From contig CAYPST010000010.1 of NCBI GenBank assembly GCA_964413425.1, positions 5,070-69,069 on the forward strand: a stretch of DNA of 64,000 bases, given 5' to 3'. Shown in pieces: positions 23,774-63,878 of the stretch. The stretch is from an uncultured bacterium (lineage in GTDB: Bacteria; Fidelibacterota; JAANXI01). Numbering within the stretch: position 1 is the first letter of the stretch; every line of letters begins with the position of its first letter. A program made the translations under genes and the position numbers. The notes beneath the pieces were generated by a model that was not told the DNA's origin, did no database searches, and was given only the letters and a program-made list of their open reading frames with translations.

Positions 23774-24156
23774 GACTATTAAGATAACGCAGTCCAGTAT
23801 CGACATGCTCCCTTAGGTGGATCATCTCTCCACCCATCCCGGCCCCGAACACTCTATCCTCCTGGCCCCCTTTCTCTCACCAGAGAAAGGGGGGACGGGG
23901 TGCGGCGCGTTGGGCGCCATTTCGGTCCCCTGTCCACCATCTCCTCGGGACAGACTGAGGAATGAGAGCACGCATGGTTGTGTGGGCCGCATGAGGGACT
24001 GCAGCCCGCCTCCCCCTCTCATGGGCTGCGGAAGATGGGGGAAGGGATCCAGGAGAGGGGGACCGAGGGGGGGGGAGTGCTCGCCGCTCCGCCAAGTCAG
24101 CCGTCCGGCCGAAGGAACGCAACCAGCTCGCTCTTTCCTGAGTTAACTTAATAGTC
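23774..24156. mobile_element. MITE-1 copy (383 bp) with terminal inverted repeats GACTATTAAG/CTTAATAGTC and flanking ATATAA duplication
   Basis: Homologous to 43064-43313. ATATAA is present at 23768-23773 and again at 24157-24162. GC-rich interior with hairpins (CTTTCTCTC..GAGAGAAAG). Confidence 0.6.
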
Positions 24157-48152: not shown

Positions 48153-48259
48153 AATCTCCTGATTGGCTAATTAAAGGTTATGAAACGGCACACGTACTGT
48201 CGTCAACGTGTAGGCTGCGTGGCAGAGCATTGATCACCAAAGCAGATGCCGGTGTGTAC

Positions 48260-48934
48260 CTATGCCACTGCTTCCAGTTTGTTAATCGCGTCAAATGCAT
48301 CTTCCCCGTACAAATCAGCGCCAATTTGTTTCGCAAAATCCTCCGATGTGGGAGCGCCGCCGATGCACACGAGCACTTCATCCCGGATCCCTTTTTCTTT
48401 GAGCAGGTCAACTACCTCTTCCATATGTCCCATGGTTGTCGTCAGGAGCGCAGAGAGCCCGAGATATTTGGCCCGGGAATTCTCCACAGCTGTTACCACG
48501 TCTTCGGCTTCCACTCCGACTCCCAGGTCCTCCACCTCAAAACCGGAACCACGGAGCAAAGTTGAGACAATATTTTTACCTATATCATGGAGATCGCCTT
48601 CCACGGTGGCGATGATAAATTTCCCGCGGCTGTTGATATCACCTTCAACCAGGAGTGGTTCCAGAATTTTGGTTGCTTCACTGACGCACTCTGCCGCTGC
48701 CAGCATATCGGGAATCAAGTACTCGCCGCTCTCATAGCGCCGGCCGACTTCTTCCATACCGGGACTCACCGCCTCATTTAAAATAGTCGACGGCGCTAAG
48801 GAATCCTCCAGACCTTGCTGCACCAGCTCAATCACACCAGGTTCACCCGCCATATCACCATCAAATCCTTCATCCGCGCTGTCGATGCGTCCATCAATCA
48901 CATTCTTCTTGATTTGTTCCAGGATGTCTGACAT
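48260..48934 (-). CDS. cobalamin-binding corrinoid protein (MtgC/MtbC-like)
   Basis: B12-binding DxHxxG (GDLHDIGKN), SALL, GGA motifs, N-terminal helical cap. Start ATG at 48934 with SD AAGGAGA. Confidence 0.85.
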   Translation of the reverse strand: MSDILEQIKKNVIDGRIDSADEGFDGDMAGEPGVIELVQQGLEDSLAPSTILNEAVSPGMEEVGRRYESGEYLIPDMLAAAECVSEATKILEPLLVEGDINSRGKFIIATVEGDLHDIGKNIVSTLLRGSGFEVEDLGVGVEAEDVVTAVENSRAKYLGLSALLTTTMGHMEEVVDLLKEKGIRDEVLVCIGGAPTSEDFAKQIGADLYGEDAFDAINKLEAVA

Positions 48935-49312
48935 GGGTTCTCCTTTTATTGTTTGATTTGCCTGAGTATTCCAAAAAATCAGCACACAGATTCACACGGA
49001 AAAAAACGGAGGATCGCAGATTATCCACACATCCCAACACCTCGAAGTATATAGGTGCATAAGTACATACGTGTCGGCGATTGTATGGTAAATTAACCAT
49101 GAATTATCGACTCCGGAGTAGTAATGCAGGAAAGAGCGACGCTTGCAGCCTCTATGCACTTATGTCCGTATGTACCCGATGAAGTGCAGGTGTGAGGCCT
49201 CCTTCCTCTTGCCTCTTTACTCATTCCTATTGTTAAATCGCTATTCATCCTTTTTTTCCGTGTTCATCTGTGTGCTATGCTTTTCATCGCAAGAATACTT
49301 CGGATTTGTATG

Positions 49313-50887
49313 TTATTTAAGTTCAAATCTCTCCCTGGGTAACAGACCGGGACACTCAGCAAGTAGTTTGTTTAACACTTCCGGTTCAATTGGTTGTCCG
49401 GGTTGTGCCATAATTTCTTGAAGACGATCCTGTGCTTTGATTAGCACCTGATCTTCCATTTCGTCAGTTTCGAACGGATACGGTGAGGAGACCAATCCCT
49501 TCCTCCGGGCTTTGCGGAAAGATCGTGCGAACAGTTTGGTGGGAGAATCGACCGTGCGTCGAATCCCCTGAACAGCGGTATCGACCTCCTCTTTTCCAAA
49601 GATGGGCTGGCGCAGAATTTCCCGGATAATCCCGAGGTGGGCATCGTCAAGTACTGCCTGTAAAGGCGAAAAGGTGTTCGTTTTTTCCAGCAGGCCAATC
49701 GCATAGTGGATATATTGTGCGCCTGCTGCCGCCACTTCCAGCTGGGAAAAGAGTTTTTCGACAGTGGCCTGTACTCCGGGCACCTTTGCATCACCGACCC
49801 CGGCAGAGGAATAGCAGGGAATACCATAATGGCGGGCCATTTGAATACAATCGACATTATAGTGGATAAATTCCGGTGCGCCGTAGAAATCATGCAGGGT
49901 GTCCTGACGGGCGCGCACCGGCACAGCGCCATATAACACCGGGGTCCCGGGATTGGTAAGCTGCGTCAACGCGATCCCTGCCAGCAGTTCGGCATTAATC
50001 AGAGACACCATCCCTTCTTCCTGGACGGGTGCTGTTGAGCCGCCCTGGGGCGAGCTGGAGATCGCCACCGGAATACCTTGTTCAGCGATCCGAATTAATT
50101 TTTCCGTGGTATCATCCACCATCTGCAACGGGCTCTTTATCACACAGGTGATAAAAGATATAATCGGATTCTGGCGAAGTGCTTCTTCGCCCCCGGCGAT
50201 ACGTTCGGCTAACTGTATGACCGTATCCAGAGATCGGAGATCTTCCAGGCCGGCCTGGACATGTTTGGTCATGTACATTAACGCCGCCATGAACATATTG
50301 ACATCTTTGTTTTCCGGCGTGATGTCCGGGTCCTGGATATTGACATTCCGGATGAAGAAATCCACATGATCTAACGCATTGCACAATTTTGCAGATTGAC
50401 AGAGATGCAGCAGTGAGCCTCGTTCCCTGTGAAAAGCGACACCTTGCTTCTCAATGGACGGCGCATCCTTTTTCACATAAGTCGTTAACTCGGATTGGAG
50501 TATGTGATTGGTTTCCGCGCCGGTCCCGAAATACACCATCGGTTCCGCAGCATTGAGTTGTAAGGTGTTGTCCGGGTTCCGGGCACCGAGCATCACTTCG
50601 GTGGGAACCGTCTCCAGTATCCGGGTGATCACCTCTTCCGGGAAACGAATATTCCAGATCGTTTGATGGGTGCTTTCCTCCCGGACATCGCATCCCGCAT
50701 TCCCATAGATTTCCGCAGCATGAGCGTTGTGGCACACAATCCCGGGATCCGCCAGAATATCCAGCGAGGCCTCATGCAGCATTTGCACCTGATCCTCGTC
50801 GATGCGCACCCGCGGCTGAACCAGGGTACCGGGCCTGACTTTCCGTTCGCTCATGCTTTCCGGGGATGAGGTCACTTTACCTGACAT
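49313..50887 (-). CDS. MttB-family methyltransferase paralog 2, non-pyrrolysine
   Basis: 524 aa; YFGTGAETN, IPVAISSSPQGGSTAP, GIPCYSSAGVGD blocks. Confidence 0.8.
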   Translation of the reverse strand: MSGKVTSSPESMSERKVRPGTLVQPRVRIDEDQVQMLHEASLDILADPGIVCHNAHAAEIYGNAGCDVREESTHQTIWNIRFPEEVITRILETVPTEVMLGARNPDNTLQLNAAEPMVYFGTGAETNHILQSELTTYVKKDAPSIEKQGVAFHRERGSLLHLCQSAKLCNALDHVDFFIRNVNIQDPDITPENKDVNMFMAALMYMTKHVQAGLEDLRSLDTVIQLAERIAGGEEALRQNPIISFITCVIKSPLQMVDDTTEKLIRIAEQGIPVAISSSPQGGSTAPVQEEGMVSLINAELLAGIALTQLTNPGTPVLYGAVPVRARQDTLHDFYGAPEFIHYNVDCIQMARHYGIPCYSSAGVGDAKVPGVQATVEKLFSQLEVAAAGAQYIHYAIGLLEKTNTFSPLQAVLDDAHLGIIREILRQPIFGKEEVDTAVQGIRRTVDSPTKLFARSFRKARRKGLVSSPYPFETDEMEDQVLIKAQDRLQEIMAQPGQPIEPEVLNKLLAECPGLLPRERFELK

Positions 50888-51144
50888 TTCCTATTGTTCC
50901 GGCACGTTTTATAACGGCAACTGAGTTTGCTTCCCGGGCAGAGAGAGGGAAGGGCATCCCTCTCCTTCCGAAGGAGAGGGAAAGAGGGAGGTTATTGTCT
51001 CCCGCTGCTAGTTCCTCCCTTATCGCCACAACGTGAGCGCTCTCGTCTGGCACCTTTGGAATGCACTGAATTATCTTAAAAGCCATCTTTAGTAATTCGT
51101 GTCAATCCGTGTTAATTAGTGGTTCCATTCCTTGTCTACTTACG

Positions 51145-51957
51145 TTACTGCGTAAATAACCCCTGTCTCTCCGCCCGGGAATAATGCCGGCAGTATCGAT
51201 CTTGTCCGGCGAACAGTTCCCCCAGCAGTATGGCTCTTTGAATCTCCGGATCCGTAGGATCACAAATGGCCGAATCGAGTCCGTGTGGGATGGCGTTGAG
51301 AAGAAACGCGGCATTCAGCACGGTTCGGGATCGCAGCCCGAACGAGATGTTCGATACGCCAACCGTTATTCTTGAGTCCGGGAATTCACTTCTGAACCGA
51401 TGCACGGCTTCCAGAGCAACCTTCCCGAACGTATGATCCGAGGAGAGAGGCATCGCCAGGGGATCAAACAGAATATTCTCTGCCGGTATGTCGAACTTTC
51501 CGGCCTCTTCGTGAATTGCCCGGCAATTCTCGATTTTCTCGTCTACTGTCTTGGGCATGGTTTCACCGCCCATGGCCAGTGCAATCATCGGCATGCCTTC
51601 CCGGGCAACCAGCGGTAAGAGTTCCTGTAAAATCCGTTCCTCATTTTTAATGGAGTTCAGAAGCCAGCCCCGGTTTCCGTTAAGATACGCAGCCGCTTTT
51701 TGTATGATCTCCGGCTCTGCAGAATCGATGCTGAATGGTTTGTCCGTGCATTCCAGTGCAATGTCAATTAACCAGGACATGTCAGCGATTTCTTGCCGGG
51801 GATCCCCGCTGCCGGTGCCGGCATTCAGATCGATGTAATCAGCACCTGCTTCATCCTGTGAGGCGATCTGATCGCGTATGACCGCATCATCCCGATTCTT
51901 AATGGCCTCTGCAATGACAGTCCTTGTGGCGTTGACTTTTTCACCGATAACTAGCAT
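51145..51957 (-). CDS. methyltetrahydrofolate:corrinoid methyltransferase (pterin-binding, MtrH/MtgA/AcsE-like)
   Basis: LVIGEKVN N-terminus (IGERIN-like), DLNAG, pterin-binding barrel pattern; 270 aa. Confidence 0.75.
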   Translation of the reverse strand: MLVIGEKVNATRTVIAEAIKNRDDAVIRDQIASQDEAGADYIDLNAGTGSGDPRQEIADMSWLIDIALECTDKPFSIDSAEPEIIQKAAAYLNGNRGWLLNSIKNEERILQELLPLVAREGMPMIALAMGGETMPKTVDEKIENCRAIHEEAGKFDIPAENILFDPLAMPLSSDHTFGKVALEAVHRFRSEFPDSRITVGVSNISFGLRSRTVLNAAFLLNAIPHGLDSAICDPTDPEIQRAILLGELFAGQDRYCRHYSRAERQGLFTQ

Positions 51958-51964
51958 AATCCCC

Positions 51965-53464
51965 TCAATCTGTACTTACAGGTTCATTCTGAAACAAATC
52001 TGCTTGAATATTTGGGAATGAGCCCCTGAACTGTTCAAGAGTATCCTCTTCAACATACAGGGTGGGGTCTTCCGCGAGGAACTGCTCCACACATTCATGA
52101 GCCTCTTCTGCGGTGGTTCTGCCGCCATTGGTTATCCAGGTTTCCCGCTTGTCCCGGTTGGTCAGGGCGGGCGTATAGTGTTCCTCGTGCATATAAGTCC
52201 GGGTATGGCGCCCCGCGACGAAATTCCCGCCGGGACCGACCTCTTTGATCGTCTCAAAGGCGAGTGTATCAGCGTTCACCTCAATACCTTGCAACACCCG
52301 CATGACCATTCCCAGGATTTCATTGTCGATGATTAATTTCTCTTTACTGACCGTGGTTGCGAACTCCATTAATCCGGCGGCATCGTGGATAAAATCTCCG
52401 CCCGCCATAGCGACCAGAAGATTGTTTATCGCGGACTCGTACCCGCTTTGCGCATCCAGAGTTTTGGAGTCGCTAATCCCGGCGGTCGAGTAGTAGGGAA
52501 AGCCATAGAAGCGGGCCAGCTGGGCACTGGCGGCGTTCAGCATGCCGCTTTCCACCGGTCCGCCCAGGTAGCTGAGATCCTGCATATTTACCGAAGAGGC
52601 CACACTCCCATAGATGGCGGGAGCGCCCGGATCGGCCAGCTGGGTCAGCATGATATGTATAAGTCCGTCGCAATTTTGCATCACCAGCGTCCCTGCCAGG
52701 GTAATAGGCGCCGTGGCTCCGCTGAGCGGCTCCACCGGCACTGCCACCGGAATGCCTTTGCGGGCCAGTTGAATGATAAATTTGCCGTACTTGCTATCCA
52801 ATCGCAGAGGACTGATACCACAGGCGATTATAGAAATAAATGGCCTTTCCCGAAGCCCTTCCGGGCTCCCGGCAAGTTTTTCAGCCATCCTGATGACATC
52901 ATTGACGCCCTGTTGAGTGTATATTCCGCCCATCACGTGTTTGGACGTATACATCATGCCGGTGAGGAACCGGTGCACATCCACGTCTTCCACCGGCAGT
53001 TCAGTGGGGTAGGTGGGGAGCAGCATTACATGGATGTTATCCAGCTGATCAACCAGCCGGACAATATCCACGAGATCCTGTAAAGTGGCGGGACGATTGG
53101 TGTCTTCTCCGTGATCCAGGATGTTCATTGCAGTGCCGCCGGTGCCAAAATAGACATTGCCTGCACCCAGCTGCACGTCCTGATCCGGTTGCCTGCCACA
53201 GAGCGTAACCTGCCGCGGCACCGACGAAATAACATCCATCACCTGGGATTCGTTCAGGCGAACGATGTCTTCCCTGGTATCGATTTCCGCGCCGATTTCG
53301 TCGAATAAGGCGAGTGCTTCCGGTTCCGTGACTTCGAATCCCACTTCTTCCAGGACCCGCATACTGGTATTGTGAATTTGCTGAATATCCTCTGAACTCA
53401 GTGGTTCATACAGCCGGCTCTGTTGGTCGAGTTCCTGTTCAAGTGTGCGAATAATGTCAATCAT
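51965..53464 (-). CDS. MttB-family methyltransferase paralog 3, non-pyrrolysine
   Basis: 499 aa; YFGTGGTAMN, IPVAVPVEPLSGATAP, GFPYYSTAGISD blocks. Confidence 0.8.
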   Translation of the reverse strand: MIDIIRTLEQELDQQSRLYEPLSSEDIQQIHNTSMRVLEEVGFEVTEPEALALFDEIGAEIDTREDIVRLNESQVMDVISSVPRQVTLCGRQPDQDVQLGAGNVYFGTGGTAMNILDHGEDTNRPATLQDLVDIVRLVDQLDNIHVMLLPTYPTELPVEDVDVHRFLTGMMYTSKHVMGGIYTQQGVNDVIRMAEKLAGSPEGLRERPFISIIACGISPLRLDSKYGKFIIQLARKGIPVAVPVEPLSGATAPITLAGTLVMQNCDGLIHIMLTQLADPGAPAIYGSVASSVNMQDLSYLGGPVESGMLNAASAQLARFYGFPYYSTAGISDSKTLDAQSGYESAINNLLVAMAGGDFIHDAAGLMEFATTVSKEKLIIDNEILGMVMRVLQGIEVNADTLAFETIKEVGPGGNFVAGRHTRTYMHEEHYTPALTNRDKRETWITNGGRTTAEEAHECVEQFLAEDPTLYVEEDTLEQFRGSFPNIQADLFQNEPVSTD

Positions 53465-53470
53465 AGTTCT

Positions 53471-54148
53471 TCACGCAGCCTCTCTTCGATATGGACAGGT
53501 ATTCTTTTTACAGGTTCTGCAAGCATTTCTGGTTAATTGTATGCCCTCCTTCCCTCCGATTCCCATGAGCCCGGAGATCGTTTTCCTCGGAGACATCAAT
53601 GCGGTGTCAAGCAGGCGCACTCCGATCCGGTCCGAGGGAAGCAGAGCAAACAGTTTTTCCTGTTCTCCTATCGGCCAGTCACAATAACCCGGACTATAGC
53701 GGAAAGTTGTTGTTTCTTCAGGTTCCAGGGTTTGTTCAATACGGTTTTGAATAGACTGTGCTGTTGTTTCCGCAGCCACCGAAGCAGCCGCATCCAGAAT
53801 AAATCCATAATGCGGCTTACGCTCCATTGTCTCCCGGATCCTTTGATCGACATCCTCACCCAGGGTCAGCAGGAAAACCACCGTCCTGTCGCAGGTAGAC
53901 AACACTTCCGCAAGCATAGGGCTCTCCAGAGGGACATCTCCTTCCAGAATCACCGTGTTCTCTTCAATATGATGGGAAATGATCCGCTCGATTGCCCGGG
54001 GATGCGCCAATTCACAGATCTCCTGCTCGGCGTGCTGCATTTCTGTTGCCACCCGAGCTGACAGGGCATGGACATTTCTTTTCCCTAACCTTCGACACAG
54101 ATCTCGCCCGGAAATTTTGACCGGAATTTTCATATAATCCAAAACCAT
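53471..54148 (-). CDS. standalone MetH-activation-domain-like protein (AdoMet-binding reactivation domain homolog) with C-terminal Cys cluster
   Basis: FRYSPGYCDWPIGEQEKLFALL resembles the MetH RxxPGY..CP.HTEK..L..LL AdoMet-binding motif. C-terminal CRTCKKNTC. Size matches split-MetH activation subunits. Confidence 0.45.
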   Translation of the reverse strand: MVLDYMKIPVKISGRDLCRRLGKRNVHALSARVATEMQHAEQEICELAHPRAIERIISHHIEENTVILEGDVPLESPMLAEVLSTCDRTVVFLLTLGEDVDQRIRETMERKPHYGFILDAAASVAAETTAQSIQNRIEQTLEPEETTTFRYSPGYCDWPIGEQEKLFALLPSDRIGVRLLDTALMSPRKTISGLMGIGGKEGIQLTRNACRTCKKNTCPYRREAA

Positions 54149-54790
54149 TTTTATCTTCTCATGACCTGTTAACTAATTCTCGAACCCATAATTTCAATCT
54201 CACTAAACCTGCATGTTATGAACATGGAACAGATAACAGTATGATAACGCTTTCTGGCCAAACTTTTATCCACTCCCGTGTCAGCCATATTGTAATGGCT
54301 GACAGACAGTTCTGGTACTGAACCGAAAAACATTTTCTTTTATCTCTCCATGCTCATACCTAAACCTCTATCACTCCTTCTATTATAAATTCACTTTTGT
54401 ATGCACTTCTATATTGTTTTCAAACCAGGTATAGAATTATGCATGCTGCCTACGGTCAGGGGATGTAATGGTGGAAAGGAAGGAAGATGCCTTCTAATCA
54501 GGCAGGCTGTATTAATCCAACTATTTAGGGTAGGTTTCGAATATTTCATGAGTCGGTGTACTTATTTTTCAATTGAAAGCGATGCATGCGCTCAGCATCA
54601 AGTCATATAAATCTTTATACATCTGTTTTTCTCATTGCCTTTTCAACTGCGATTCTGTTCCGGATTCGCTTTCCCTCGATACCTCTCTTATTCCAAAGTT
54701 TCTCATAAGTGTTATAGTTTAGGAAGATGAAATGATAACTTCTACCATTAATCTTAATTGCTTATACACTAGAATTCATTAAAATAGAAT

Positions 54791-56284
54791 ATGTCCGAAA
54801 AAGTAAACATCCGCCTGGAACCCGCAGGAAAAGAATTCCAGGTCAGTTCCGGCACCCGGCTGATGGATGTGGTGCACCAGTACGGCGTGGAATTTCCCTG
54901 CGGCGGAAAAGGTACCTGCGGGGGATGTAAAGTCAGACTACTCACCGGCGATATCCATCTCACCCCTGACCACAGGGAAGCATTGCAGGAGATCGGACTC
55001 ACTGAAGAGTGGCGATTAGCATGTCTCAGTTCCGTCGAAAGTGATGTGGTGCTGGAAGTGGATCAATGGGAGCATATCATCCTGGCAGACAATACCACCT
55101 TCGAGTTCCTTCCGCGTGAAGGGTACGGCATTGCGGTGGATCTGGGCACCACAACCATCGTTTCACAACTGGTGGATCTGTCCGACGGGAATGTGATCAG
55201 CGTTCAGAGAGCCTTAAATCCCCAATCGCGGTATGGGACGGATATTATGTCGAGGATAGAGTTTGGTATACGATCACAGGAGAACGAGGAATTACTTACC
55301 GCCCTCTCCAGAGAGGTTGTCGGACAGCAGATAGAGGATTTGTTGCAGCAATCGGATGGGACGGTTTCCACCATCGTCATTGTCGGAAACACGGTCATGC
55401 ATCATACCTTCTCCGGCATTGACCTGAAGCCGCTTTCCGCGTATCCTTTTCACTCTGCCGACAGTGGAGCCCAAACCTTTCATCCCTTCGACCTTGAGCT
55501 CGACCTTCCCGGTGAGCCGCGTATCACATTCCTCCCCTGTATCGGCGGATTTGTGGGCAGCGATATCCTGGCAGGGATTATGGCAGCCAGGATGCATCGC
55601 AGTGACGAATGGATCGCCTTAATAGATTTAGGCACCAATGGTGAAATCGCCATCGGGAGTAAAGAACGGATCCTCTGTGCTTCGACGGCAGCAGGGCCCG
55701 CGTTTGAAGGCATGAATATCTCCATGGGAATGAGTGCGACCACCGGAGCCATATCTTCGGTATCTGTGGAGGAGGGGAAACTGCGATGTCATGTGATCGG
55801 AGATGAGCGGCCCAGGGGAATCTGCGGGAGTGGATTAATTGATGCCGTTGCTGTGCTGTTACAGGAGGGAAGAATCAATAATCGGGGACGATTTACCGGT
55901 TCTTCCGATACCATCGAATTGCTTTCGCCGGTATATCTCAGCCGAAGAGATATCGGGGAATTTCAGCTGGCGAAGGGCGCCATTGCCACCGGAATGCAAA
56001 TATTAATGGATCAACTCGGACCGGATCATGTGGATCTTCGGCAAGTCTATATTGCCGGAGCCTTTGGTCATTATCTCAATCCGCACAATATCCGGCAAAT
56101 CGGCATGCTGCAGCACGACCCGGATAAGATACAGAAGCTGGGGAACAGTGCATTGATCGGGGCAAAGATGTCTCTGTTTCAGGAATTTGATACCATCAAT
56201 GAGATATTAGAAAAAACCGAGCACATCTCACTGGAATCCGAACCGGACTTTCAACATATTTTTACTGAAAAAATGCTGTTCTAA
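54791..56284 (+). CDS. RamA/RACo-type ATP-dependent reductive activase of corrinoid proteins (2Fe-2S ferredoxin plus ASKHA ATPase)
   Basis: N-terminal CGGKGTCGGCKV...C ferredoxin motif; actin-like ATPase blocks (VDLGTTT, DLGTNGE). Confidence 0.8.
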   Translation: MSEKVNIRLEPAGKEFQVSSGTRLMDVVHQYGVEFPCGGKGTCGGCKVRLLTGDIHLTPDHREALQEIGLTEEWRLACLSSVESDVVLEVDQWEHIILADNTTFEFLPREGYGIAVDLGTTTIVSQLVDLSDGNVISVQRALNPQSRYGTDIMSRIEFGIRSQENEELLTALSREVVGQQIEDLLQQSDGTVSTIVIVGNTVMHHTFSGIDLKPLSAYPFHSADSGAQTFHPFDLELDLPGEPRITFLPCIGGFVGSDILAGIMAARMHRSDEWIALIDLGTNGEIAIGSKERILCASTAAGPAFEGMNISMGMSATTGAISSVSVEEGKLRCHVIGDERPRGICGSGLIDAVAVLLQEGRINNRGRFTGSSDTIELLSPVYLSRRDIGEFQLAKGAIATGMQILMDQLGPDHVDLRQVYIAGAFGHYLNPHNIRQIGMLQHDPDKIQKLGNSALIGAKMSLFQEFDTINEILEKTEHISLESEPDFQHIFTEKMLF

Positions 56285-56872: not shown

Positions 56873-57094
56873 CTAAAGTACGGGCTCGGTCTCAGGATGT
56901 TGAAGGGAAGAGATTCGGACATTCAGAGTCGTTCCGCACTCCCGGTGGTTGAACAATAAAAACGCCAGGAGCGGATCTTCAAAATGCGGCTGGTAGCCAA
57001 TGAATACAATGTTCGGATCATCGAGAAATTCCGATTGAAAATCCCATATTCTGCCACAGTTTGTACAAATCTTGAAGGGGATGGTATCGTCCAT
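56873..57094 (-). CDS. hypothetical small Cys-containing protein
   Basis: ORF only; CTNCG...HREC possible zinc-ribbon. Confidence 0.25.
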   Translation of the reverse strand: MDDTIPFKICTNCGRIWDFQSEFLDDPNIVFIGYQPHFEDPLLAFLLFNHRECGTTLNVRISSLQHPETEPVL

Positions 57095-57903: not shown

Positions 57904-58347
57904 TTGCCGATTATAACATTATCAATATATAATGGTCCGATACTGGAAGAAGAGGGCCCTCTGGTTCTGGTCGTGGATGATGAGGAGAGTGTGCTGCGGA
58001 ATGTTGGCCGCATCCTCCAGATCAATAATTATCGAGTAATGACGGCCGCGACCGGGGAAGCAAGTTTCAATCTGGCCCGTGAACATAAGCCGGACGTTGT
58101 GGTGATGGATATTGCAATGCCCGGATTAACAGGAGTCGAAGCGGTGAAAGTGTTGAAGAAGCATCAGCGCACCAGTGATATCCCTGTTATTATGATGACG
58201 GCATATGCCACTGAGGATTATGTGATGTTTTCTAAACAGGCCGGAGCTGACGATTATATTGCGAAACCTTTTCGTGCTTCGACACTTGTTCGAAGAATAG
58301 AGCGTATTTTAGATACACCGTCCTCTACAGCGGGAGAAAAGAGTTGA
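57904..58347 (+). CDS. single-domain response regulator (REC only)
   Basis: VVDDEE acidic pocket, phospho-acceptor D in VVVMDIAMPG, conserved T and K. Apparent TTG start. Confidence 0.7.
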   Translation: MPIITLSIYNGPILEEEGPLVLVVDDEESVLRNVGRILQINNYRVMTAATGEASFNLAREHKPDVVVMDIAMPGLTGVEAVKVLKKHQRTSDIPVIMMTAYATEDYVMFSKQAGADDYIAKPFRASTLVRRIERILDTPSSTAGEKS

Positions 58348-58492
58348 GTTATATGCAATAGAAGGAATCCCAATAGTCCGATGCTTCCCGAATATCAGAT
58401 CCCTCTCACTTCCGTAATTATTTGCTGACTCGAACTGCAGTTTCTTCATAATTCAACACACTGTGTAACTTCTGTAGAGTAGAGATAGGAAA

Positions 58493-61400
58493 TTGAGACG
58501 TACAATGAATCTCCGGAGATTATTAACCGAGAAACAATTCAGGATGACAGTCCTCATATCCGTATTGCTCGGCATTTTGTATGGAGTCGTTGATGCAGCC
58601 CTGGATGCGTATGTCTTTTATGGGGGGCAATTCCTCGAACTGGCAATCTATGAAGTACCCCCGCATGAAATATATGTCCGGGGCATATCCCTGGCGATTT
58701 TTGTTGCTTTCGGCGTAATTCTGGGTGTATTACGCCACCATCATCAACAGGAATTGCAGCATCACAACGATCAGGATCTGAGAATACTCCAGGGGATGGG
58801 ATGTGGCCTGATTACCACCGATTGTGCGGGGAACATCACCTTTCTGAATACGGCTGCTCAACAGCTTACCGGCTGGCGCGAGGGAGAAGCCACAGGCAAG
58901 CATTATTCTGATGTCTTCCGCATTCCGGCTGCGGATATGATCACCCCGGTGATCCAGGAGCATCGGATTGTCGAATCGCTTGATGGCAACCAGTTGGTTT
59001 CAAAAGAAGGCCATGAATCGCTGATCACTTACACGGTCGCTCCCAGGTATCATTCCGGGAACATCAGCGGTGCGATCATCACCTTTCACGAGAACACTCC
59101 CAGAGATGAATTAACCGGAAAAATTCGTGAAAACGAGGAGCTCCACCGTCTGGTTCTGAGGGAAATCAGTGATACTGTTCTTATCACGGATGACCAGGGC
59201 GAATTTACATACGTCTGTCCTAATGTGGAAGTGATTTTCGGTTATACTCCACAGGAAGTGAACGCCATGGGTTCAATCACGGTGTTAATGGGAGAGGTGC
59301 AGATGGAGCCGTCGGAAGTGGAAAAACTCGGTGAACTCCGAAACCTGGAACACACCATCATTGATAAATCCGGCCATGCTCACCATCTGCTGACCTCGGT
59401 CAAGGCAGTCGATATTCAGGGGGGCACTCTTCTCTATACCTGCCGGGATATCAGTGACCGCAAAGCGGTGGAAGAGGAGCTGCAGTTCCACTCCCGGATG
59501 TTGAACCAGGTGGGCGAAGCGGTGATTGCTACCGATCCGGCAGGGGAAATCATCTACTGGAATACGACTGCGGAGGTTCTCTACGGATGGAGCCGGAGTG
59601 AAGCTGTGGGCAAAAACGTTGTTGAAGTTACCACTACACCGGAGGTTGCCGAGGGGGCCGAGGAAATAATCCAAACGCTGCGGAACGGGCAATGCTGGTC
59701 CGGCACATTTCCGGTGCGGCGGAAGGATGGCAGTGTTTTCCAGGCTTTCGTCACCGATGCTCCGGTGCTGGACAGCAATGGGAACCTTGCTGCGATTATC
59801 GGAACCTCCAGAGATATTTCCGAACAAGTTGCGGCCTATACAGCCCTTAAGGAGAGCGAAGCACAATTCCGTACCATCTTTGAGGAAGCCCCCATCGGAA
59901 TGGCACTGGTAGATGAATCCGGCATTTTTCTGGAAGTCAATAGCAACCTCTGTCGCCTGTTGGGGTATTCGAAGGAAGAATTGTGTACCAAAAACTGGGA
60001 GGATCTCACCCATCCGGATGATCTCCAAAAGAATAAACGGGAAGCAACCCGGCTGATTTCCGGCGAAATATCCAGCCTGCAATTAGAAAAAAGATATATC
60101 ACAAAGCACGGGACTACCATGTGGGCAAATGTGAGTGTATCCCTGGGGGGCACAATTGAAGATCGAGTATTTCAGATTACCATGATAGAAGACATTACCA
60201 GCCAGAAACAGGCGGAACGTGCGTTAATGGACAGTGAAACCCGGTTCCGGAATATCTGGGAATGTTCCCCGGAAGCCATGTGTCTTACTGATGCGGAAGG
60301 GGTTCTCATGCTGGTGAATCCGGCATTTGCCCGGTTGGTGAACATCGACAGTGAGAAGTTGGTCGGCACCTCGTTTATCGAATTATTCCAGGAGAGTGAC
60401 CGGCAGGAGTATTTGCAGCAATACCGGGAATATTTTCGCAGGGAGGGTTTACCGGACACCATTGAAGAAGAAGTCACCTTTGTTGGTGAGAAAACGAAAT
60501 ACCTTGAGATTACCAATTCCTTCATGGAATTCGGGGATGATCGACAACCACTGTTGTTCAGTATTATTCGCGATTTGACTGTGCAGAAATCCATGGAACA
60601 AGAACTGATCCAGGCACAAAAGCTGGAATCACTGGGAGAAATCGCTGGTGGGATTGCACATGATTTCAACAATGTATTAACTGCCATTGATATTCCCGCA
60701 CATATCCAGGAAACGCAAAATACACAAAAGGAACTGGACCAGTATATTAAGATCATTCAGTCAAGTCTTGAGTGGGGTAAATCAGTTACGGAACGTATGC
60801 TGACATTTATTCGCTCCACCGAGCCGAAGAAGCAGGTGATTTCTCTGGAATCTTTTTTAAACGACTTCAAAGAAATTGCCGTCCATACTCTTCCGCCTTA
60901 TGTGAATCTGCGAATCCTGTCAGGTACGGAACCTGATGGAATTCTGGCTGATCCCGGACAGTTGCAGCAAATACTCTTCACATTGTGTATCAATGCGTCA
61001 GATGCCATGCCCAGGGGTGGCACGATCACGCTTGGATTCCGCGAACTGAGTGAAGAAGAACTCCAAAAACACGCCAGCGGTCGCCGGGATAGCTATCGCT
61101 GTTTGCTTGTCGAGGATGAAGGGGATGGGATGAATAGTGAAACATTGCACCATATTTTTGAGCCATTTTTTACAACCAAGAGTCCTGAGATAGGGACCGG
61201 ACTCGGGTTGGCAGTGGTGAAGAAACTTGTGCACATGCATCAGGGATGGATTGACGTTTCCAGTGAACCTAGAGCAGGCACCAGGTTCATAATCGGACTG
61301 CCTGCGGCGAAAACGCCTTCTGACCGCATCCGAACGACCACAGAACATAGGGAGGAAAGTCTGCCTGCTGGCAATGGTGAGACGCTCTTACTGGTAGAGG

Positions 61401-61771
61401 ATGAACGAAGCATCCTGAACGCCTTATCTAAATCATTTGAACATCTGGACTATAAAGTACTTACCGCTTCCAGTGGTACCGAGGCGGGAATTCGGATGAA
61501 GGAAAATCCCGGAAAGATCGATATGTTGATCACGGATATCGGACTGCCGGATATGAACGGCCGGGAGCTTGTCTTCAAATTCAAAGCACTTTTTCCTCAT
61601 GCACCAGTCATTGTCACAACCGGATATGTGGATGAATCGCTGAAGGATGAACTCTATGCCGCCGGAGTGAACAAAATCGTAACAAAGCCTTTCAATATTC
61701 GAACTATCTCACCCGTGATCAGACGTTTATTCAAACAGAGACCGGTAATGGAAACTGATCAGAAGGAGTAA
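58493..61771 (+). CDS. membrane-anchored multi-PAS hybrid sensor histidine kinase (HisKA-HATPase-REC)
   Basis: Two N-terminal TM helices, about 5 PAS/PAC domains, H-box GGIAHDFNNVL, ATPase G-boxes, C-terminal receiver (LVEDERS...DMLITDIGLPDMNG). Confidence 0.85.
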   Translation: MRRTMNLRRLLTEKQFRMTVLISVLLGILYGVVDAALDAYVFYGGQFLELAIYEVPPHEIYVRGISLAIFVAFGVILGVLRHHHQQELQHHNDQDLRILQGMGCGLITTDCAGNITFLNTAAQQLTGWREGEATGKHYSDVFRIPAADMITPVIQEHRIVESLDGNQLVSKEGHESLITYTVAPRYHSGNISGAIITFHENTPRDELTGKIRENEELHRLVLREISDTVLITDDQGEFTYVCPNVEVIFGYTPQEVNAMGSITVLMGEVQMEPSEVEKLGELRNLEHTIIDKSGHAHHLLTSVKAVDIQGGTLLYTCRDISDRKAVEEELQFHSRMLNQVGEAVIATDPAGEIIYWNTTAEVLYGWSRSEAVGKNVVEVTTTPEVAEGAEEIIQTLRNGQCWSGTFPVRRKDGSVFQAFVTDAPVLDSNGNLAAIIGTSRDISEQVAAYTALKESEAQFRTIFEEAPIGMALVDESGIFLEVNSNLCRLLGYSKEELCTKNWEDLTHPDDLQKNKREATRLISGEISSLQLEKRYITKHGTTMWANVSVSLGGTIEDRVFQITMIEDITSQKQAERALMDSETRFRNIWECSPEAMCLTDAEGVLMLVNPAFARLVNIDSEKLVGTSFIELFQESDRQEYLQQYREYFRREGLPDTIEEEVTFVGEKTKYLEITNSFMEFGDDRQPLLFSIIRDLTVQKSMEQELIQAQKLESLGEIAGGIAHDFNNVLTAIDIPAHIQETQNTQKELDQYIKIIQSSLEWGKSVTERMLTFIRSTEPKKQVISLESFLNDFKEIAVHTLPPYVNLRILSGTEPDGILADPGQLQQILFTLCINASDAMPRGGTITLGFRELSEEELQKHASGRRDSYRCLLVEDEGDGMNSETLHHIFEPFFTTKSPEIGTGLGLAVVKKLVHMHQGWIDVSSEPRAGTRFIIGLPAAKTPSDRIRTTTEHREESLPAGNGETLLLVEDERSILNALSKSFEHLDYKVLTASSGTEAGIRMKENPGKIDMLITDIGLPDMNGRELVFKFKALFPHAPVIVTTGYVDESLKDELYAAGVNKIVTKPFNIRTISPVIRRLFKQRPVMETDQKE

Positions 61772-61775
61772 ACCG

Positions 61776-63878
61776 ATGTCAGTCGAAACCAGTATCGAAA
61801 CCTTCGATCTGCATCTCAACAATGTTTTGGACGGAGGAATCCCGGCACCCTCATTCAATATTCTTGCCGGGCAGCCCGGCACGGGAAAAACCATCTTCTG
61901 TCAGCAGCTGCTTTTCCATCATATCACCACGCATCCGGATTCGTCGGTTTTATATCTCACTACCTTATCGGAACCCCCGGCGAAAATTCTGCGATTTATG
62001 CGCGGCTTTACATTTTTCCATGCTGATCTCATTGGTTCGACTATCCACATCGATGATATTGGGGGAACCCTACGGAAAAATTCTCTCGAAGAGGTGCTGA
62101 AAACCATCCTGAGCAAAGTGCAAAAGGTTGACGCTGAAGTCCTGGTCATAGATTCGTTCAAAGCTATTCGGGACTTTACCGAAGATAAGGAGGTATTTCG
62201 GAAATTTATTTATCGCCTGGCCATTCGGCTGTATAATGAAGGTTGTACCGCCATACTGGTGGGGGAATATGATACACAACGACTGACCAGCGGGGCAGAG
62301 TTTGCCATTGCAGATGGGATTATTTCTCTGACGCTTAAATTGGTTGCCGGAGAGTATCAGCGCACGCTCCAGGTTATGAAACTCCGTGGCCGAAATGCAT
62401 GGCTGGGACCAATACCTTTTATCATCGTACCGGAGGGAATAACAGCGCTGACATCCGGACTGAGCAATCCGGTATCATCGGAATTAAGGAGGAGGACTTG
62501 CGAGCCGACCGGAATTACAGGCCTGGATGCTCTGCTGAATGGAGGACTGTGTCGGGGGCGGGCCATCATTTTGTCCGGCGTCTCAGGGACCGGGAAAACC
62601 ACCTTGTCGCTCCAGATCCTTTCCAATGCCTCTAAGTGTGGGCAGCGAGGCTTGTATTATTCCTTTGAAGAGCCGGCAGCAGATTTATTGACGACAGCAG
62701 CGTCGTTCGGCTGGGAGTTACACTCGAAGCTGGAATCCGGGTTGATAAGACTGGTGCATATCCCCCAAACCGCCATTCGCATTGAAGAGAACCTAAAAGC
62801 TATCCGGGACGACATCGAGGAATTTCAGCCTGACTGGGTCGTACTGGATTCCTTTTCGTTGTTTCTCCACCGCGTGAAAAACGATGCCATAATTCGGGAG
62901 AAGACCTATCAGGTGAAAAACATGGTGTACCAGGCAAATGCAGTCGGATTGTTACTCTCGGATATCCCGGCAGACGCACCGGAGCAGTTCTCACGATTTG
63001 GAGTTGAAGAGACCATCGGAGATGGGACAATTCGATTAAGCAGCAAGATGAAACATACAGCCAGGCACAGATTCATAGAAGTGTACAAAATGCGACAGGT
63101 GAACCACGTTACCGGACAACATCGCATGGAAATTTCCGGGAACGGAATCGAAGTGATGTATATACCACCTTCAAACCATGGAAAGTTGAAATCCCCTTCG
63201 CCCCTTACGTTTTCTCCGGTGCAACCACTATTTCATGATGAGATTCGGTACGGATCAGCCTGGCTCGTCCGCGGTCAGGCAGGCATAGGAAAATCCACAC
63301 TCGCACTTCAGTTCGCTGCGGAAGGATTACAAAACGGAGAATCCGTATTGTTTATCACTGCCGATACGATACAAAATGGATTGGAAAAAATGAACATTCA
63401 ACCGGAACAGTATCAAAAAAAGCACAAGTTTCATCTGCTGGATGGGTATAGTGGAAGCCAGAAGGGGCTCAATTTGACAGATGGGAGTGGATTACTGTAT
63501 GTCATTGCCCGGACGATGGAATCCTATGACCCTCCGTTGAGAATTATCTTCGATTCGGTCACCCCGCTGGCAGCCAGTTTTAACAGTGCTCAATTTATTG
63601 ATTTGATACAGCAAAAGAACCGGTTATTGCGTCAACCCGGCGTCGTAATTCTGGATACCCACCTGCATGAGAATATGGATAATGAACCTTTACCGGAATT
63701 ACTTAATGTGTATGATATCGTGATGGATTTGTTCAGTACTGCCGGTGCTGATTTCTCCGAGGGCACTGAAAACCGGAGATATCTGCGAATGAGGAAATCC
63801 AGAGGAGGTCGGACCGATCGGACCGCCGTTCCGTTCTCCATCTCAGCGGAACAAGGTATTGTCATCGATGCCCCCTAA
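61776..63878 (+). CDS. KaiC-like RecA-superfamily ATPase with three tandem KaiC domains
   Basis: Three Walker A sites (AGQPGTGKT at ~res 35, SGVSGTGKT at ~270, GQAGIGKS at ~500), each followed by hhhh-DS Walker B (VLVIDSF, VVLDSFS, IIFDSVT) and a K(M/L)R-G motif. The gene starts 4 bp after the kinase gene. Confidence 0.75.
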   Translation: MSVETSIETFDLHLNNVLDGGIPAPSFNILAGQPGTGKTIFCQQLLFHHITTHPDSSVLYLTTLSEPPAKILRFMRGFTFFHADLIGSTIHIDDIGGTLRKNSLEEVLKTILSKVQKVDAEVLVIDSFKAIRDFTEDKEVFRKFIYRLAIRLYNEGCTAILVGEYDTQRLTSGAEFAIADGIISLTLKLVAGEYQRTLQVMKLRGRNAWLGPIPFIIVPEGITALTSGLSNPVSSELRRRTCEPTGITGLDALLNGGLCRGRAIILSGVSGTGKTTLSLQILSNASKCGQRGLYYSFEEPAADLLTTAASFGWELHSKLESGLIRLVHIPQTAIRIEENLKAIRDDIEEFQPDWVVLDSFSLFLHRVKNDAIIREKTYQVKNMVYQANAVGLLLSDIPADAPEQFSRFGVEETIGDGTIRLSSKMKHTARHRFIEVYKMRQVNHVTGQHRMEISGNGIEVMYIPPSNHGKLKSPSPLTFSPVQPLFHDEIRYGSAWLVRGQAGIGKSTLALQFAAEGLQNGESVLFITADTIQNGLEKMNIQPEQYQKKHKFHLLDGYSGSQKGLNLTDGSGLLYVIARTMESYDPPLRIIFDSVTPLAASFNSAQFIDLIQQKNRLLRQPGVVILDTHLHENMDNEPLPELLNVYDIVMDLFSTAGADFSEGTENRRYLRMRKSRGGRTDRTAVPFSISAEQGIVIDAP

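What the first reader, a model, noticed from the sequence alone, without database searches (positions are those of the whole stretch)
57904..63878. Response regulator – multi-PAS hybrid kinase – KaiC-homolog operon without KaiB or KaiA
Three co-directional genes with 4-146-bp spacers: a stand-alone receiver, a 1092-aa membrane hybrid kinase with about 5 PAS domains, and a KaiC-family ATPase starting 4 bp after the kinase stop. KaiC homologs partnered with histidine kinases are known as timing or stress modules. Here no KaiB is present in the window, and the KaiC is atypical (see the next finding). An R1 repeat copy lies immediately upstream, as it does for the other hybrid-kinase locus at 35.6 kb.
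Basis: partly seen in the sequence, partly recalled or inferred. Interest (0 to 1): 0.6.

Follow-up and report, generated by a model that had tools for sequence, protein, structure and literature searches.

The report
Sensor kinase paired with three-domain KaiC ATPase
An uncultured Gram-negative bacterium carries a response regulator, a five-PAS hybrid sensor kinase and an unusual three-domain relative of the clock protein KaiC as one gene cluster, and the kinase–KaiC pair is conserved in every close relative examined, so this is a KaiB-free signalling module of a known kind with an undescribed three-ring ATPase.

Summary
Three same-strand genes encode a stand-alone receiver (57904-58347), a 1092-aa hybrid histidine kinase (58493-61771: two membrane segments, five PAS, HisKA, HATPase, receiver) and a 700-aa KaiC-family ATPase (61776-63878). 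The spacers are 145 and 4 bp.

A strong ribosome-binding site (GAAGGAG) for the KaiC gene lies inside the last codons of the kinase gene. No terminator separates the genes. No KaiB is encoded in the 64 kb.

The ATPase has three real KaiC domains rather than two. It is not RadA/Sms, and it scores below the curated cut-offs for circadian KaiC.

All five closest homologues (46-49% identity) have an orthologous PAS hybrid kinase directly upstream, with gaps of -8 to +45 bp. More distant members sit beside other signalling genes instead.

KaiC homologues linked to histidine kinases and single-domain regulators without KaiB are already documented in Ramlibacter and Pseudomonas. The operon is therefore a variant of a known kind.

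The new elements are the three-domain ATPase and its fixed pairing with an upstream hybrid kinase. I found no paper describing either.

The likely function is a nucleotide- or phosphorylation-state-dependent modulator of two-component signalling, not a circadian oscillator. Interest is moderate.

The parts
57904..58347 (+). Stand-alone CheY-like receiver (147 aa from the TTG start). All phospho-acceptor residues are present: D25, D26, D69, T99, K121. The true start codon is uncertain.
   Evidence: Pfam Response_reg 108 bits over aa 21-132. Residues located. 44% identical to the receiver domain of the gene directly upstream of the orthologous kinase in L006. The TTG-start sequence is not in the protein collection.
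58348..58492 (+). 145-bp spacer between the receiver and kinase genes. It has no terminator, and only a weak sigma-70-like match at 58425-58452.
   Evidence: Scan: the site scores 9/12, and the total number of sites does not exceed shuffles. The RNA fold is less stable than shuffles, z +1.7. The spacer is not conserved at DNA level with L009 or L006.
58493..61771 (+). Hybrid histidine kinase, 1092 aa.

- Two membrane segments (aa ~18-42 and ~62-83; nt 58544-58741) joined by a ~20-aa loop.
- Five PAS domains (aa ~95-700; nt 58775-60592).
- HisKA with H723, then HATPase_c (aa 714-939; nt 60632-61309).
- C-terminal receiver with D1015 (aa 966-1073; nt 61388-61711).

An alternative ATG start lies at 58505.
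   Evidence: Pfam and NCBIfam. Hydropathy. H-box HDFNN at 723, N-box at 834, G1 at 875, G2 at 901, receiver D1015, T1043 and K1065. The kinase core is 45-48% identical to the kinases upstream of the five closest triple-KaiC homologues, against 34-38% for paralogous hybrid kinases.
61762..61768 (+). Shine-Dalgarno sequence GAAGGAG for the KaiC-like gene. It lies inside the last codons of the kinase gene, 7 nt before the ATG at 61776. The kinase stop codon TAA is at 61769-61771.
   Evidence: Read directly from the sequence. This is the layout expected for translational coupling.
61776..62480 (+). KaiC-like domain D1 (aa 1-235), the counterpart of KaiC CI. Walker A GQPGTGKT (K38). 'TLSEP' motif with S65-E66 where KaiC has E77-E78. 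Walker B D126. K202 and R204.
   Evidence: Family alignment of 38 sequences: S65, E66, K38, D126 and R204 are invariant. Mapping to S. elongatus KaiC.
62481..63200 (+). KaiC-like domain D2 (aa 236-475), the counterpart of KaiC CII. Walker A GVSGTGKT (K274). Catalytic E298-E299. Walker B D358. E412-T413 at the positions of KaiC S431-T432; the T413 codon is at 63012-63014.
   Evidence: HMMER alignment to PDB KaiC chains. T413 is invariant in 38/38 and E412 is Glu in 37/38.
63201..63878 (+). KaiC-like domain D3 (aa 476-700, plus the stop codon), an extra third domain. Walker A GQAGIGKS (K506). A single acidic residue, D530, in place of the Glu pair. Walker B D593. K674 and R676. No Ser/Thr at the phosphosite position.
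   Evidence: D3 alone scores 72 bits on Pfam KaiC, covering model positions 11-227 of 231. Conservation. In 1.84 billion representative proteins, only 18 match D3 at E<=1e-30, mostly ~700-aa proteins.

Best explanation
The locus encodes a KaiB- and KaiA-independent signalling module whose conserved core is a cytoplasm-sensing hybrid histidine kinase co-expressed with a three-domain KaiC-family ATPase.

Shown:
- The two core genes are translationally coupled and co-inherited as an orthologous pair.
- The kinase and both receivers keep every catalytic residue.
- All three ATPase domains keep Walker A and Walker B.
- Only D2 keeps the Glu pair, and it carries one invariant Thr at the KaiC T432 position, with a fixed Glu in place of S431.

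Inferred:
- The ATPase forms a KaiC-like hexamer, here three rings tall.
- Its nucleotide state and its single-site (T413) phosphorylation state report energy status or elapsed time.
- It binds the kinase. By analogy with P. putida KaiC, this could be through a PAS domain.
- Binding shifts the kinase/phosphatase balance of the kinase.
- Phosphoryl groups then flow from H723 to the kinase's own receiver (D1015) and/or to the stand-alone receiver (D69). That receiver has no output domain, so it would act on a protein target or serve as a phosphate sink.

With one phosphosite, a phosphomimetic at the second site and no KaiB, this would behave as a switch or hourglass rather than a self-sustained oscillator.
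For: - Domain content and catalytic residues.
- 4-bp spacer with the ribosome-binding site inside the kinase gene.
- No terminator between the genes.
- 5 of 5 closest homologues (P0002-P0006, 46-49% identity, including a Marinimicrobia genome) have a PAS hybrid kinase directly upstream at -8 to +45 bp.
- Those kinases are closer to ours (45-48% in the core) than paralogous kinases are (34-38%).
- An orthologous receiver is present in L006 (44% identity) and a stand-alone receiver in L009.
- All 11 related triple-KaiC loci examined sit next to a signalling gene (kinase, GGDEF-EAL, REC-HD, PAS-V4R or an RsbR/S/T-type set).
- KaiC fold and two-domain stacking: pLDDT 87, TM 0.80-0.84 to KaiC structures.
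- Motif conservation.
- Published analogues. Bacterial kaiC genes outside cyanobacteria usually lie next to kinases and are co-transcribed with them in Ramlibacter (PMC3164672). P. putida KaiC binds its hybrid kinase (the PAS domain is sufficient) and its single-domain regulator, and no KaiB exists in any Pseudomonas genome.
Against: - There is no experimental evidence of any kind for this family.
- The direction of information flow (ATPase to kinase, or kinase to ATPase) cannot be read from sequence.
- The receiver gene directly upstream of the kinase is present in only 3 of the 6 loci of the close subclade, and here it is separated by 145 bp.
- A close cyanobacterial parallel in motif pattern, LbKaiC2 (one Glu in CI, a Glu pair in CII, one phosphosite, kinase neighbour), showed low ATPase activity and no detectable autophosphorylation (PMC11680916). 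T413 phosphorylation is therefore not assured.
- KaiB could be encoded elsewhere in the genome. One distant family member (L096) lies next to kaiB-kaiC.
Confidence: 0.6

Rival explanations
1. The information flows the other way. The PAS kinase and its receivers control the ATPase, for example by docking of a phosphorylated receiver domain on the hexamer. The three-ring ATPase is then the output device acting on an unknown target.
For: - The ATPase gene is the last gene, downstream of the sensor.
- In more distant family members the ATPase is flanked by very different sensory or output partners: REC-HD, GGDEF-EAL, PAS-V4R and an RsbR/S/T-type set. This fits a common effector plugged into various inputs as well as it fits a common input.
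- The stand-alone receiver has no output domain and needs a protein target.
Against: - No candidate substrate or machine for the ATPase is conserved near it.
- In the studied systems (cyanobacterial SasA/CikA, P. putida) KaiC is treated as the modulator of the kinase.
Confidence: 0.2
2. It is part of a true KaiBC-type timer, hourglass or oscillator, whose kaiB (and possibly a two-domain kaiC) lies elsewhere in the genome.
For: - Only 64 kb of the genome is visible.
- In L096 a family member sits directly after kaiB, kaiC (557 aa) and a small gene.
- In L013 and L097 two-domain KaiC genes precede the triple one.
Against: - No KaiB lies within 7-8 kb in the window or in any of the five closest loci, and the positive control worked.
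- Circadian KaiC models score below cut-off: 273 against 408 and 177 against 546 bits.
- The S431 position is a fixed Glu, so the ordered two-site cycle is impossible.
- The CI region that holds the KaiB/SasA-binding loop is about 7 residues shorter.
- The C-terminal KaiA-binding tail is replaced by D3.
Confidence: 0.12
3. The adjacency is incidental. The ATPase is a RecA/RadA-type DNA repair or helicase-loader paralogue, or a defence ATPase, unrelated to the kinase.
For: There are weak local P-loop matches to DnaB_C, RecA, RadA and some PADLOC models.
Against: - These matches cover only the Walker A neighbourhood and fall far below cut-offs.
- There is no zinc finger or Lon-like domain.
- Three full-length KaiC domains are present.
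- The fold matches KaiC.
- Kinase adjacency is conserved with co-orthologous kinases in 5 of 5 loci.
Confidence: 0.03

Closest known systems
Pseudomonas putida KT2440 KaiC homologue with its hybrid histidine kinase and single-domain response regulator (Terrettaz et al., bioRxiv 10.1101/2022.01.26.477890)
   Same: - The same three kinds of gene sit in one predicted operon.
- No KaiB is present.
- The response regulator has no output domain.
- KaiC interacts physically with the kinase (the PAS domain is sufficient) and with the regulator.
- The proposed role is a stress or starvation 'timer' acting through phosphotransfer.
   Different: - Those proteins are described throughout as KaiC homologues, with no extra domain mentioned, whereas ours has a third KaiC domain.
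- The P. putida group has an SS pair at the phosphosites, whereas ours has E-T.
- Ours has five PAS domains and a membrane anchor.
- Sequence relatedness to the Pseudomonas proteins was not measured here.
Ramlibacter tataouinensis Rta_04330 (KaiC) / Rta_04340 (kinase) operon, and the general rule that non-cyanobacterial kaiC genes lie next to signalling genes (De Luca et al. 2011, PMC3164672)
   Same: kaiC and the kinase are co-transcribed without kaiB. The proposed role is a rudimentary hourglass.
   Different: - There, kaiC lies upstream of the kinase, and the kinase has an N-terminal KaiB/SasA-like docking domain.
- Here, the kinase is upstream and has no KaiB-like domain.
- Ours has three domains and one phosphosite.
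Cyanobacterial KaiABC oscillator with SasA/CikA-RpaA output
   Same: - KaiC-family double RecA-like core.
- Glu pair and a Thr at the T432 position in the CII-like domain.
[quoted passage not shown]
   Different: - No KaiA or KaiB.
- One Glu missing in CI (S65).
- S431 replaced by Glu.
- No A-loop tail.
- An extra third domain.
- The kinase lacks the SasA KaiB-like domain, and the regulator lacks a DNA-binding domain.
- Scores fall below the circadian KaiC model cut-offs.
LbKaiC2 of Leptolyngbya boryana (Matsukami et al. 2024, PMC11680916)
   Same: The motif pattern is the same: one catalytic Glu in CI, a Glu pair in CII, a single phosphorylatable residue, no KaiA-binding tail, and kinase genes nearby. 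It forms a hexamer.
   Different: It is a two-domain protein. It showed low, temperature-dependent ATPase activity and no detectable autophosphorylation. Its relatedness to our protein was not measured.
Archaeal KaiC-like ATPases proposed as signal-transduction hubs (Makarova, Galperin, Koonin 2017, as cited in PMC5847659)
   Same: KaiC-family ATPases are linked by fusion or neighbourhood to receiver, PAS and kinase components. Our family also has archaeal members in Thermoplasmatota, Heimdall- and Odinarchaeota.
   Different: Most of those are single-domain or inactivated KaiC domains. That paper could not be read here, so I do not know whether it lists a three-domain architecture.

Membership tests
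KaiC family ATPase (Pfam PF06745) | Match to the family model above the gathering score | tested here: met
   338 bits in three stretches, cut-off 26.6. D3 alone scores 72 bits.
KaiC family ATPase (Pfam PF06745) | RecA-like fold with KaiC-type stacking of tandem domains | tested here: met
   AlphaFold model pLDDT 87, pTM 0.72. Best Foldseek PDB hits are all KaiC, TM (target) 0.80-0.84 over ~470 columns.
Circadian clock KaiC (NCBIfam TIGR02655 / NF006799 equivalogs) | Score above the curated equivalog cut-off | tested here: not met
   177 bits against 546, and 273 bits against 408.
Circadian clock KaiC | Catalytic Glu pair in both CI (E77-E78) and CII (E318-E319) | tested here: not met
   The CI-like domain has S65-E66, invariant in the family. 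The CII-like domain has E298-E299.
Circadian clock KaiC | Adjacent phosphosites S431 and T432 | tested here: not met
   E412-T413. Thr is invariant in 38/38 and Glu is present in 37/38.
Circadian clock KaiC | C-terminal A-loop and tail that binds KaiA; about 520 aa with two domains | tested here: not met
   A third KaiC domain (aa 476-700) follows D2 after a ~30-aa linker.
Circadian clock KaiC | Cognate kaiB (and kaiA) gene | tested here: inconclusive
   None in the 64-kb window (best E 2.4; positive control). The rest of the genome is not available.
RadA/Sms DNA repair protein | Score above the TIGR00416 cut-off; N-terminal zinc finger and C-terminal Lon-like domain | tested here: not met
   76 bits against 403, covering only aa 245-361. 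No other domains were found. PDB RadA matches at E 1e-5 against KaiC at 1e-55.
KaiB-independent KaiC-homologue / histidine kinase / single-domain regulator modules (Pseudomonas and Ramlibacter type) | [quoted passage not shown] | tested here: met
   The pairing is conserved in 5 of 5 closest loci.
KaiB-independent KaiC-homologue / histidine kinase / single-domain regulator modules | Physical interaction of KaiC with the kinase and the regulator | not testable with these tools
   This needs two-hybrid, pull-down or co-purification experiments.
SasA-type KaiC-interacting kinase | N-terminal KaiB-like (thioredoxin-fold) docking domain | tested here: not met
   No KaiB Pfam hit in the kinase. The KaiB phmmer search of the window had no hit in the kinase gene. 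The N-terminus is two membrane segments followed by PAS.
Hybrid histidine kinase (HisKA type) | H-box His, N/G1/G2 ATP-binding boxes, and a C-terminal receiver with acceptor Asp | tested here: met
   H723, N-box at 834, G1 at 875, G2 at 901, D1015, T1043 and K1065. Pfam HisKA, HATPase_c and Response_reg.
CheY-like single-domain response regulator | Receiver domain only, with the acidic pair, acceptor Asp, Thr and Lys | tested here: met
   D25, D26, D69, T99 and K121. No output domain.

The most novel reading that the evidence does not exclude
The third KaiC domain forms an extra ATP-binding ring fused exactly where canonical KaiC carries its KaiA-binding tail. This ring would act as a built-in replacement for KaiA/KaiB. 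Its nucleotide state would gate phosphorylation of the single Thr (T413) in the middle ring, and it would present the docking surface for the hybrid kinase. The result would be a self-contained three-ring timer or energy gauge wired directly into two-component signalling, conserved from bacteria to Asgard archaea.
Probability: 0.15. Interest if true: 0.7.

Novelty: new variant of a known kind. Interest (0 to 1): 0.42.

Why it matters
How KaiC-family ATPases work outside the cyanobacterial clock is an open question. They are widespread, usually lie next to sensor kinases, and almost none has been studied.

This locus belongs to a compact family. Only 18 clusters at 50% identity match the third domain at E<=1e-30. 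The family is phylogenetically broad and adds a third nucleotide-binding ring.

In one subclade the ATPase is locked to a specific hybrid kinase by translational coupling. That gives a clean two-protein pair, plus a receiver, for biochemistry and cryo-EM.

Such work could test whether KaiC-like hexamers modulate kinase activity without KaiB, and what a third ring contributes. If it shows only ordinary kinase modulation, the finding stays a routine variant of a known module.

Tried and rejected
- **Source genome.** The genome-contig scan with the ATPase found no source genome and only 28-35% relatives.
- **Exact-sequence look-up.** The look-up for contigs encoding this exact protein found none on record, and the cluster look-up showed an unnamed NCBI contig of 70,566 bp.
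- **Organism identity.** The asparagine synthase search was not decisive. The top hits (71-77% identity) are unnamed, and named hits at ~69% spread over Deltaproteobacteria, Chloroflexota and Spirochaetes. I can only say Gram-negative bacterium, from TonB, HlyD and TetR genes.
- **Metagenome scan.** The scan with the family alignment returned mostly two-domain KaiC homologues, because a Walker A pattern was chosen. It was useful for showing how common REC-KaiC-kinase clusters are, but it added no members of our D3-type family.
- **RNA families.** Rfam gave no hit in the window. The consensus fold of the three repeat copies showed no covariation.
- **Receiver-kinase spacer.** The spacers of three loci are similar in length (142-145 bp) but not conserved in sequence. 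I dropped the idea of a shared leader element.
- **Defence systems.** PADLOC gave only local P-loop or receiver matches, so the defence-system reading was rejected.
- **Literature.** Searches for a three-domain KaiC found nothing. Makarova et al. 2017 is not held.
- **Archaeal origin.** I first suspected a methanogen because of the RACo and MttB genes. I rejected this on the bacterial envelope genes and the strong Shine-Dalgarno site.
Full report
**1. What is in the sequence**

- 57904-58347: 147 aa from a TTG start.
- 58493-61771: 1092 aa.
- 61776-63878: 700 aa.

The first is a receiver domain only (Pfam Response_reg, 108 bits). It has the full set of phospho-acceptor residues: D25, D26, D69, T99 and K121.

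The second is a hybrid histidine kinase.
- Two hydrophobic segments (aa ~18-42 and ~62-83) are separated by about 20 residues. The protein is therefore membrane-anchored but has no sizeable extracytoplasmic sensor.
- Five PAS domains follow (TIGR00229 in five stretches).
- The HisKA domain carries H723, and the N, G1 and G2 boxes are intact.
- The C-terminal receiver carries D1015.

The third ORF is a KaiC-family ATPase (Pfam PF06745, 338 bits). It matches the family model in three separate stretches rather than two. The large antisense ORFs inside the kinase gene have no family match.

**2. Operon structure**

The spacers are 145 bp (receiver to kinase) and 4 bp (kinase to ATPase). GAAGGAG at 61762-61768 lies inside the last codons of the kinase gene, 7 nt before the ATG at 61776, and the kinase stop codon is at 61769-61771. 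This is the layout of translational coupling.

The consensus scan found no terminator-like site on the + strand between the genes, and the number of promoter-like sites does not exceed shuffled sequence. The receiver-kinase spacer folds worse than shuffles (z +1.7). The kinase-ATPase junction shows nothing significant.

Two short GC hairpins straddle and follow the ATPase stop codon, but they are not significant (z -1.75), and the window ends 122 nt later.

The kinase-ATPase pair is therefore almost certainly co-transcribed. The receiver gene probably is too, but the 145-bp gap leaves room for an internal promoter.

The receiver's start codon is uncertain. There is no ATG, GTG or TTG close to the first beta-strand (LVLVVDD). 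The best sigma-70-like match of the region (TTGCCG-18-TATAAT, 57904-57933) overlaps the TTG start. The TTG-start versions of both the receiver and the kinase are absent from the protein collection, so other gene callers chose other starts.

**3. The ATPase is a three-domain KaiC relative**

It is neither RadA/Sms nor a circadian KaiC orthologue.
- Against solved structures, the best matches are KaiC chains (E 1e-55 to 1e-40). RadA matches only at 1e-5.
- The RadA/Sms model scores 76 bits against a cut-off of 403. No zinc finger or Lon-like domain is present.
- An AlphaFold model built on 38 family members has mean pLDDT 87 and pTM 0.72.
- All the best Foldseek hits in the PDB are KaiC, with TM 0.80-0.84 over about 470 columns. 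D1 and D2 therefore stack like CI and CII.
- Both NCBIfam circadian KaiC equivalog models score below their cut-offs: 273 against 408, and 177 against 546 bits.

I mapped motifs onto S. elongatus KaiC. My recalled sequence was checked against PDB 1u9i, where it scored highest over residues 1-519. I then scored conservation across 38 family members (and the HMMER alignment).

| Domain | Residues | Walker A | Catalytic acid(s) | Walker B | Other |
|---|---|---|---|---|---|
| D1 | 1-235 | K38 | invariant 'TLSEP': S65-E66 where KaiC has E77-E78 | D126 | R204 |
| D2 | 236-475 | K274 | Glu pair E298-E299 | D358 | E412-T413 at the S431-T432 positions (Thr invariant 38/38, Glu 37/38) |
| D3 | 476-700 | K506 | single acidic residue D530 | D593 | K674, R676; no Ser/Thr at the phosphosite position |

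D3 alone scores 72 bits on Pfam KaiC over almost the whole model.

The CI region that holds the KaiB/SasA-binding loop is about seven residues shorter than in S. elongatus. D3 is attached where canonical KaiC has its KaiA-binding tail.

The protein could thus bind up to 18 nucleotides per hexamer and has a single candidate phosphosite next to a fixed phosphomimetic. An ordered two-site cycle, as in the circadian oscillator, is not possible.

**4. Absence of KaiB**

A phmmer search with S. elongatus KaiB (verified identical to PDB 4kso) against every six-frame segment of at least 40 aa in the window gave nothing better than E 2.4. The same search found no KaiB in the loci of the five closest homologues. 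It did find the KaiB of locus L096 at E 1e-28, which shows the test is sensitive (Pfam confirmation).

The rest of the genome is not available, so absence is shown only locally.

**5. Related loci**

The ATPase belongs to a family of about 700-715-aa proteins. All of the best 120 database hits are 694-745 aa long with 91-100% coverage. Members occur in cyanobacteria, Marinimicrobia, Entotheonella, Alphaproteobacteria, Planctomycetes, Thermoplasmatota, and Heimdall- and Odinarchaeota. Sources annotate them only as 'ATPase domain-containing', 'AAA family ATPase', 'RAD55 family ATPase' or 'KaiC'.

The nearest non-self relative is only 49% identical.

In 1.84 billion representative proteins, D3 finds just 18 clusters at E<=1e-30, and most of these are ~700-aa proteins. 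The third domain is therefore specific to this family.

I examined 11 other distinct loci.

*Close subclade (46-49% identity; P0002-P0006).* All five have a multi-PAS hybrid kinase directly upstream, with gaps of -8, 22, 27, 45 and 21 bp.
- Their kinase cores (DHp-CA-receiver) are 45-48% identical to ours. Paralogous hybrid kinases in the same loci or in this window reach only 34-38%. The kinase and the ATPase are thus co-inherited as a pair.
- A receiver gene precedes the kinase in two of the five. In L006 the receiver domain is 44% identical to ours. In L009, from a Marinimicrobia genome, the receiver is a stand-alone 125-aa protein.

*More distant members (41-46% identity).* The gene directly upstream is instead a small protein of about 120-156 aa with no Pfam match. 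The neighbours are other signalling genes:
- GAF-PAS-GGDEF-EAL.
- A PAS kinase.
- REC-HD.
- PAS-V4R.
- An RsbR/S/T-SpoIIE-type set.
- In three loci, one or two two-domain KaiC genes, once together with KaiB.

Every locus examined places the triple KaiC next to a signalling gene.

Among 35 longer metagenome loci carrying more distant KaiC homologues, most of them two-domain proteins, receiver and/or kinase genes flank the KaiC gene in most cases, typically in the order REC-KaiC-kinase.

**6. Comparison with what is known**

KaiC homologues linked to kinases without KaiB are documented.
- De Luca et al. (PMC3164672) state that almost all bacterial kaiC genes outside cyanobacteria lie near signalling genes, most often upstream of a kinase. 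They showed co-transcription in Ramlibacter.
- Terrettaz et al. (bioRxiv 10.1101/2022.01.26.477890) found no KaiB in 1255 Pseudomonas genomes.
  - They found KaiC homologues in predicted operons with kinases, hybrid kinases and single-domain regulators.
  - P. putida KaiC binds its hybrid kinase, and the PAS domain is sufficient. It also binds the regulator.
  - KaiC phosphorylation changes with culture age.
- LbKaiC2 of Leptolyngbya has the same motif pattern as our D1-D2: one Glu in CI, a Glu pair in CII, and one phosphosite. It has kinase neighbours and forms a hexamer, but it showed low ATPase activity and no detectable autophosphorylation.

I found two features described nowhere. Makarova et al. 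2017 could not be read. The two features are:
- The three-domain architecture.
- In this subclade, the fixed pairing of the ATPase with an upstream, translationally coupled hybrid kinase. This is the reverse of the usual kaiC-then-kinase order, and the kinase has no KaiB-like docking domain.

**7. Most likely mechanism**

*Shown.* The kinase and the ATPase are co-expressed and co-inherited. The two-component parts are catalytically complete. There are three nucleotide-binding domains, with one catalytic Glu pair and one conserved Thr.

*Inferred, by analogy with KaiC-SasA and P. putida.*
- The ATPase forms a hexamer.
- Its nucleotide and T413 state depend on energy status or elapsed time.
- It binds the kinase and shifts its kinase/phosphatase balance.
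- The PAS array adds cytoplasmic signals.
- The phosphoryl group goes to the kinase's own receiver and/or to the stand-alone receiver, which acts on a protein target or as a phosphate sink.

I put about 0.6 on this general model. The reverse direction, in which the kinase controls the ATPase, cannot be excluded from sequence (0.2). A KaiB-dependent timer with kaiB elsewhere in the genome is possible but disfavoured (0.12). Incidental adjacency or a DNA-repair role is very unlikely (0.03).

**8. Verdict**

The module is a new variant of a known kind.

Interest is moderate. The pairing gives a tractable system for asking what KaiC-like hexamers do to sensor kinases without KaiB, and what a third ring adds. 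The general association is not surprising to specialists.

Noticed in passing
L011:7578-7997, L013:5661-6131, L096:6632-6997, L097:1745-2179 and 3917-4315, L098:5575-5958; also the ORFs just upstream of the KaiC-like genes in L001/L002, L014, L016-L020, L024, L026-L029: A small protein family of about 120-156 aa with no Pfam match lies immediately upstream of KaiC-like genes and abuts or overlaps them. It precedes two-domain KaiC genes and both three-domain types, in many unrelated loci. It looks like a conserved, uncharacterised KaiC partner. It is absent from this window (best E 0.79 with a family HMM), where the hybrid kinase occupies that position.
   Followed up: partly
L001:2821-4983, L014:320-2485, L016:3092-5251, L018:8091-10238, L019:7971-10160, L021:145-2328: There is a second kind of three-domain KaiC-like protein, about 716-730 aa, whose third domain resembles our D2 rather than our D3. 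It is also followed by histidine kinase genes in L001, L018 and L019. The three-domain architecture may have arisen more than once.
   Followed up: partly
L096:4509-14436 (GCA_964656675.1): One locus carries KaiB (122 aa), KaiC (557 aa), the small partner (121 aa) and a triple KaiC (715 aa). These are followed by RsbR-like, STAS, two HATPase_c_2, SpoIIE and RsbU_N/V4R genes and a hybrid kinase. This is a Kai cluster joined to a stressosome-like partner-switching set.
   Followed up: no
It contains conserved GC hairpins. It has no Rfam match and no covariation among the three copies. Two copies lie 245 and ~600 nt upstream of the two hybrid-kinase loci. The third is not near a kinase.
   Followed up: partly
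window 23774-24153 and 43066-43313: A second repeat family of G-rich segments at 85-93% identity lies directly after the first R1 copy and occurs again at 43.1 kb, in another intergenic region (families D5, D8, D9, D10). It may be a composite mobile or regulatory element.
   Followed up: no
window 46686-56284: Just upstream of the module lies a cluster of three MttB-family methyltransferases, a pterin-binding methyltransferase, a B12-related protein and a RACo-type corrinoid activase. A glycine-betaine ABC transporter fusion lies at 38770-40383. Deletion of P. putida KaiC altered betaine-utilisation genes. The proximity here may be coincidence.
   Followed up: no
window 57904-57975: The receiver ORF has no ATG, GTG or TTG near its first beta-strand. 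The only upstream in-frame canonical start is the TTG at 57904, which is itself the -35 hexamer of the best sigma-70-like match in the region (TTGCCG-18-TATAAT, 57904-57933). Either the protein has a 20-aa N-terminal extension or it uses a non-canonical start such as the CTG at 57961, which follows a GAGGG.
   Followed up: partly
window 56873-57094 (- strand): A 73-aa ORF with a CxxC motif and no Pfam match sits in the 1.6-kb AT-rich gap between the corrinoid activase gene and the receiver gene.
   Followed up: no
window 35583-38324: A second PAS hybrid histidine kinase (913 aa) has no adjacent KaiC-like or receiver gene. Its core is only 34% identical to the KaiC-linked kinase.
   Followed up: partly
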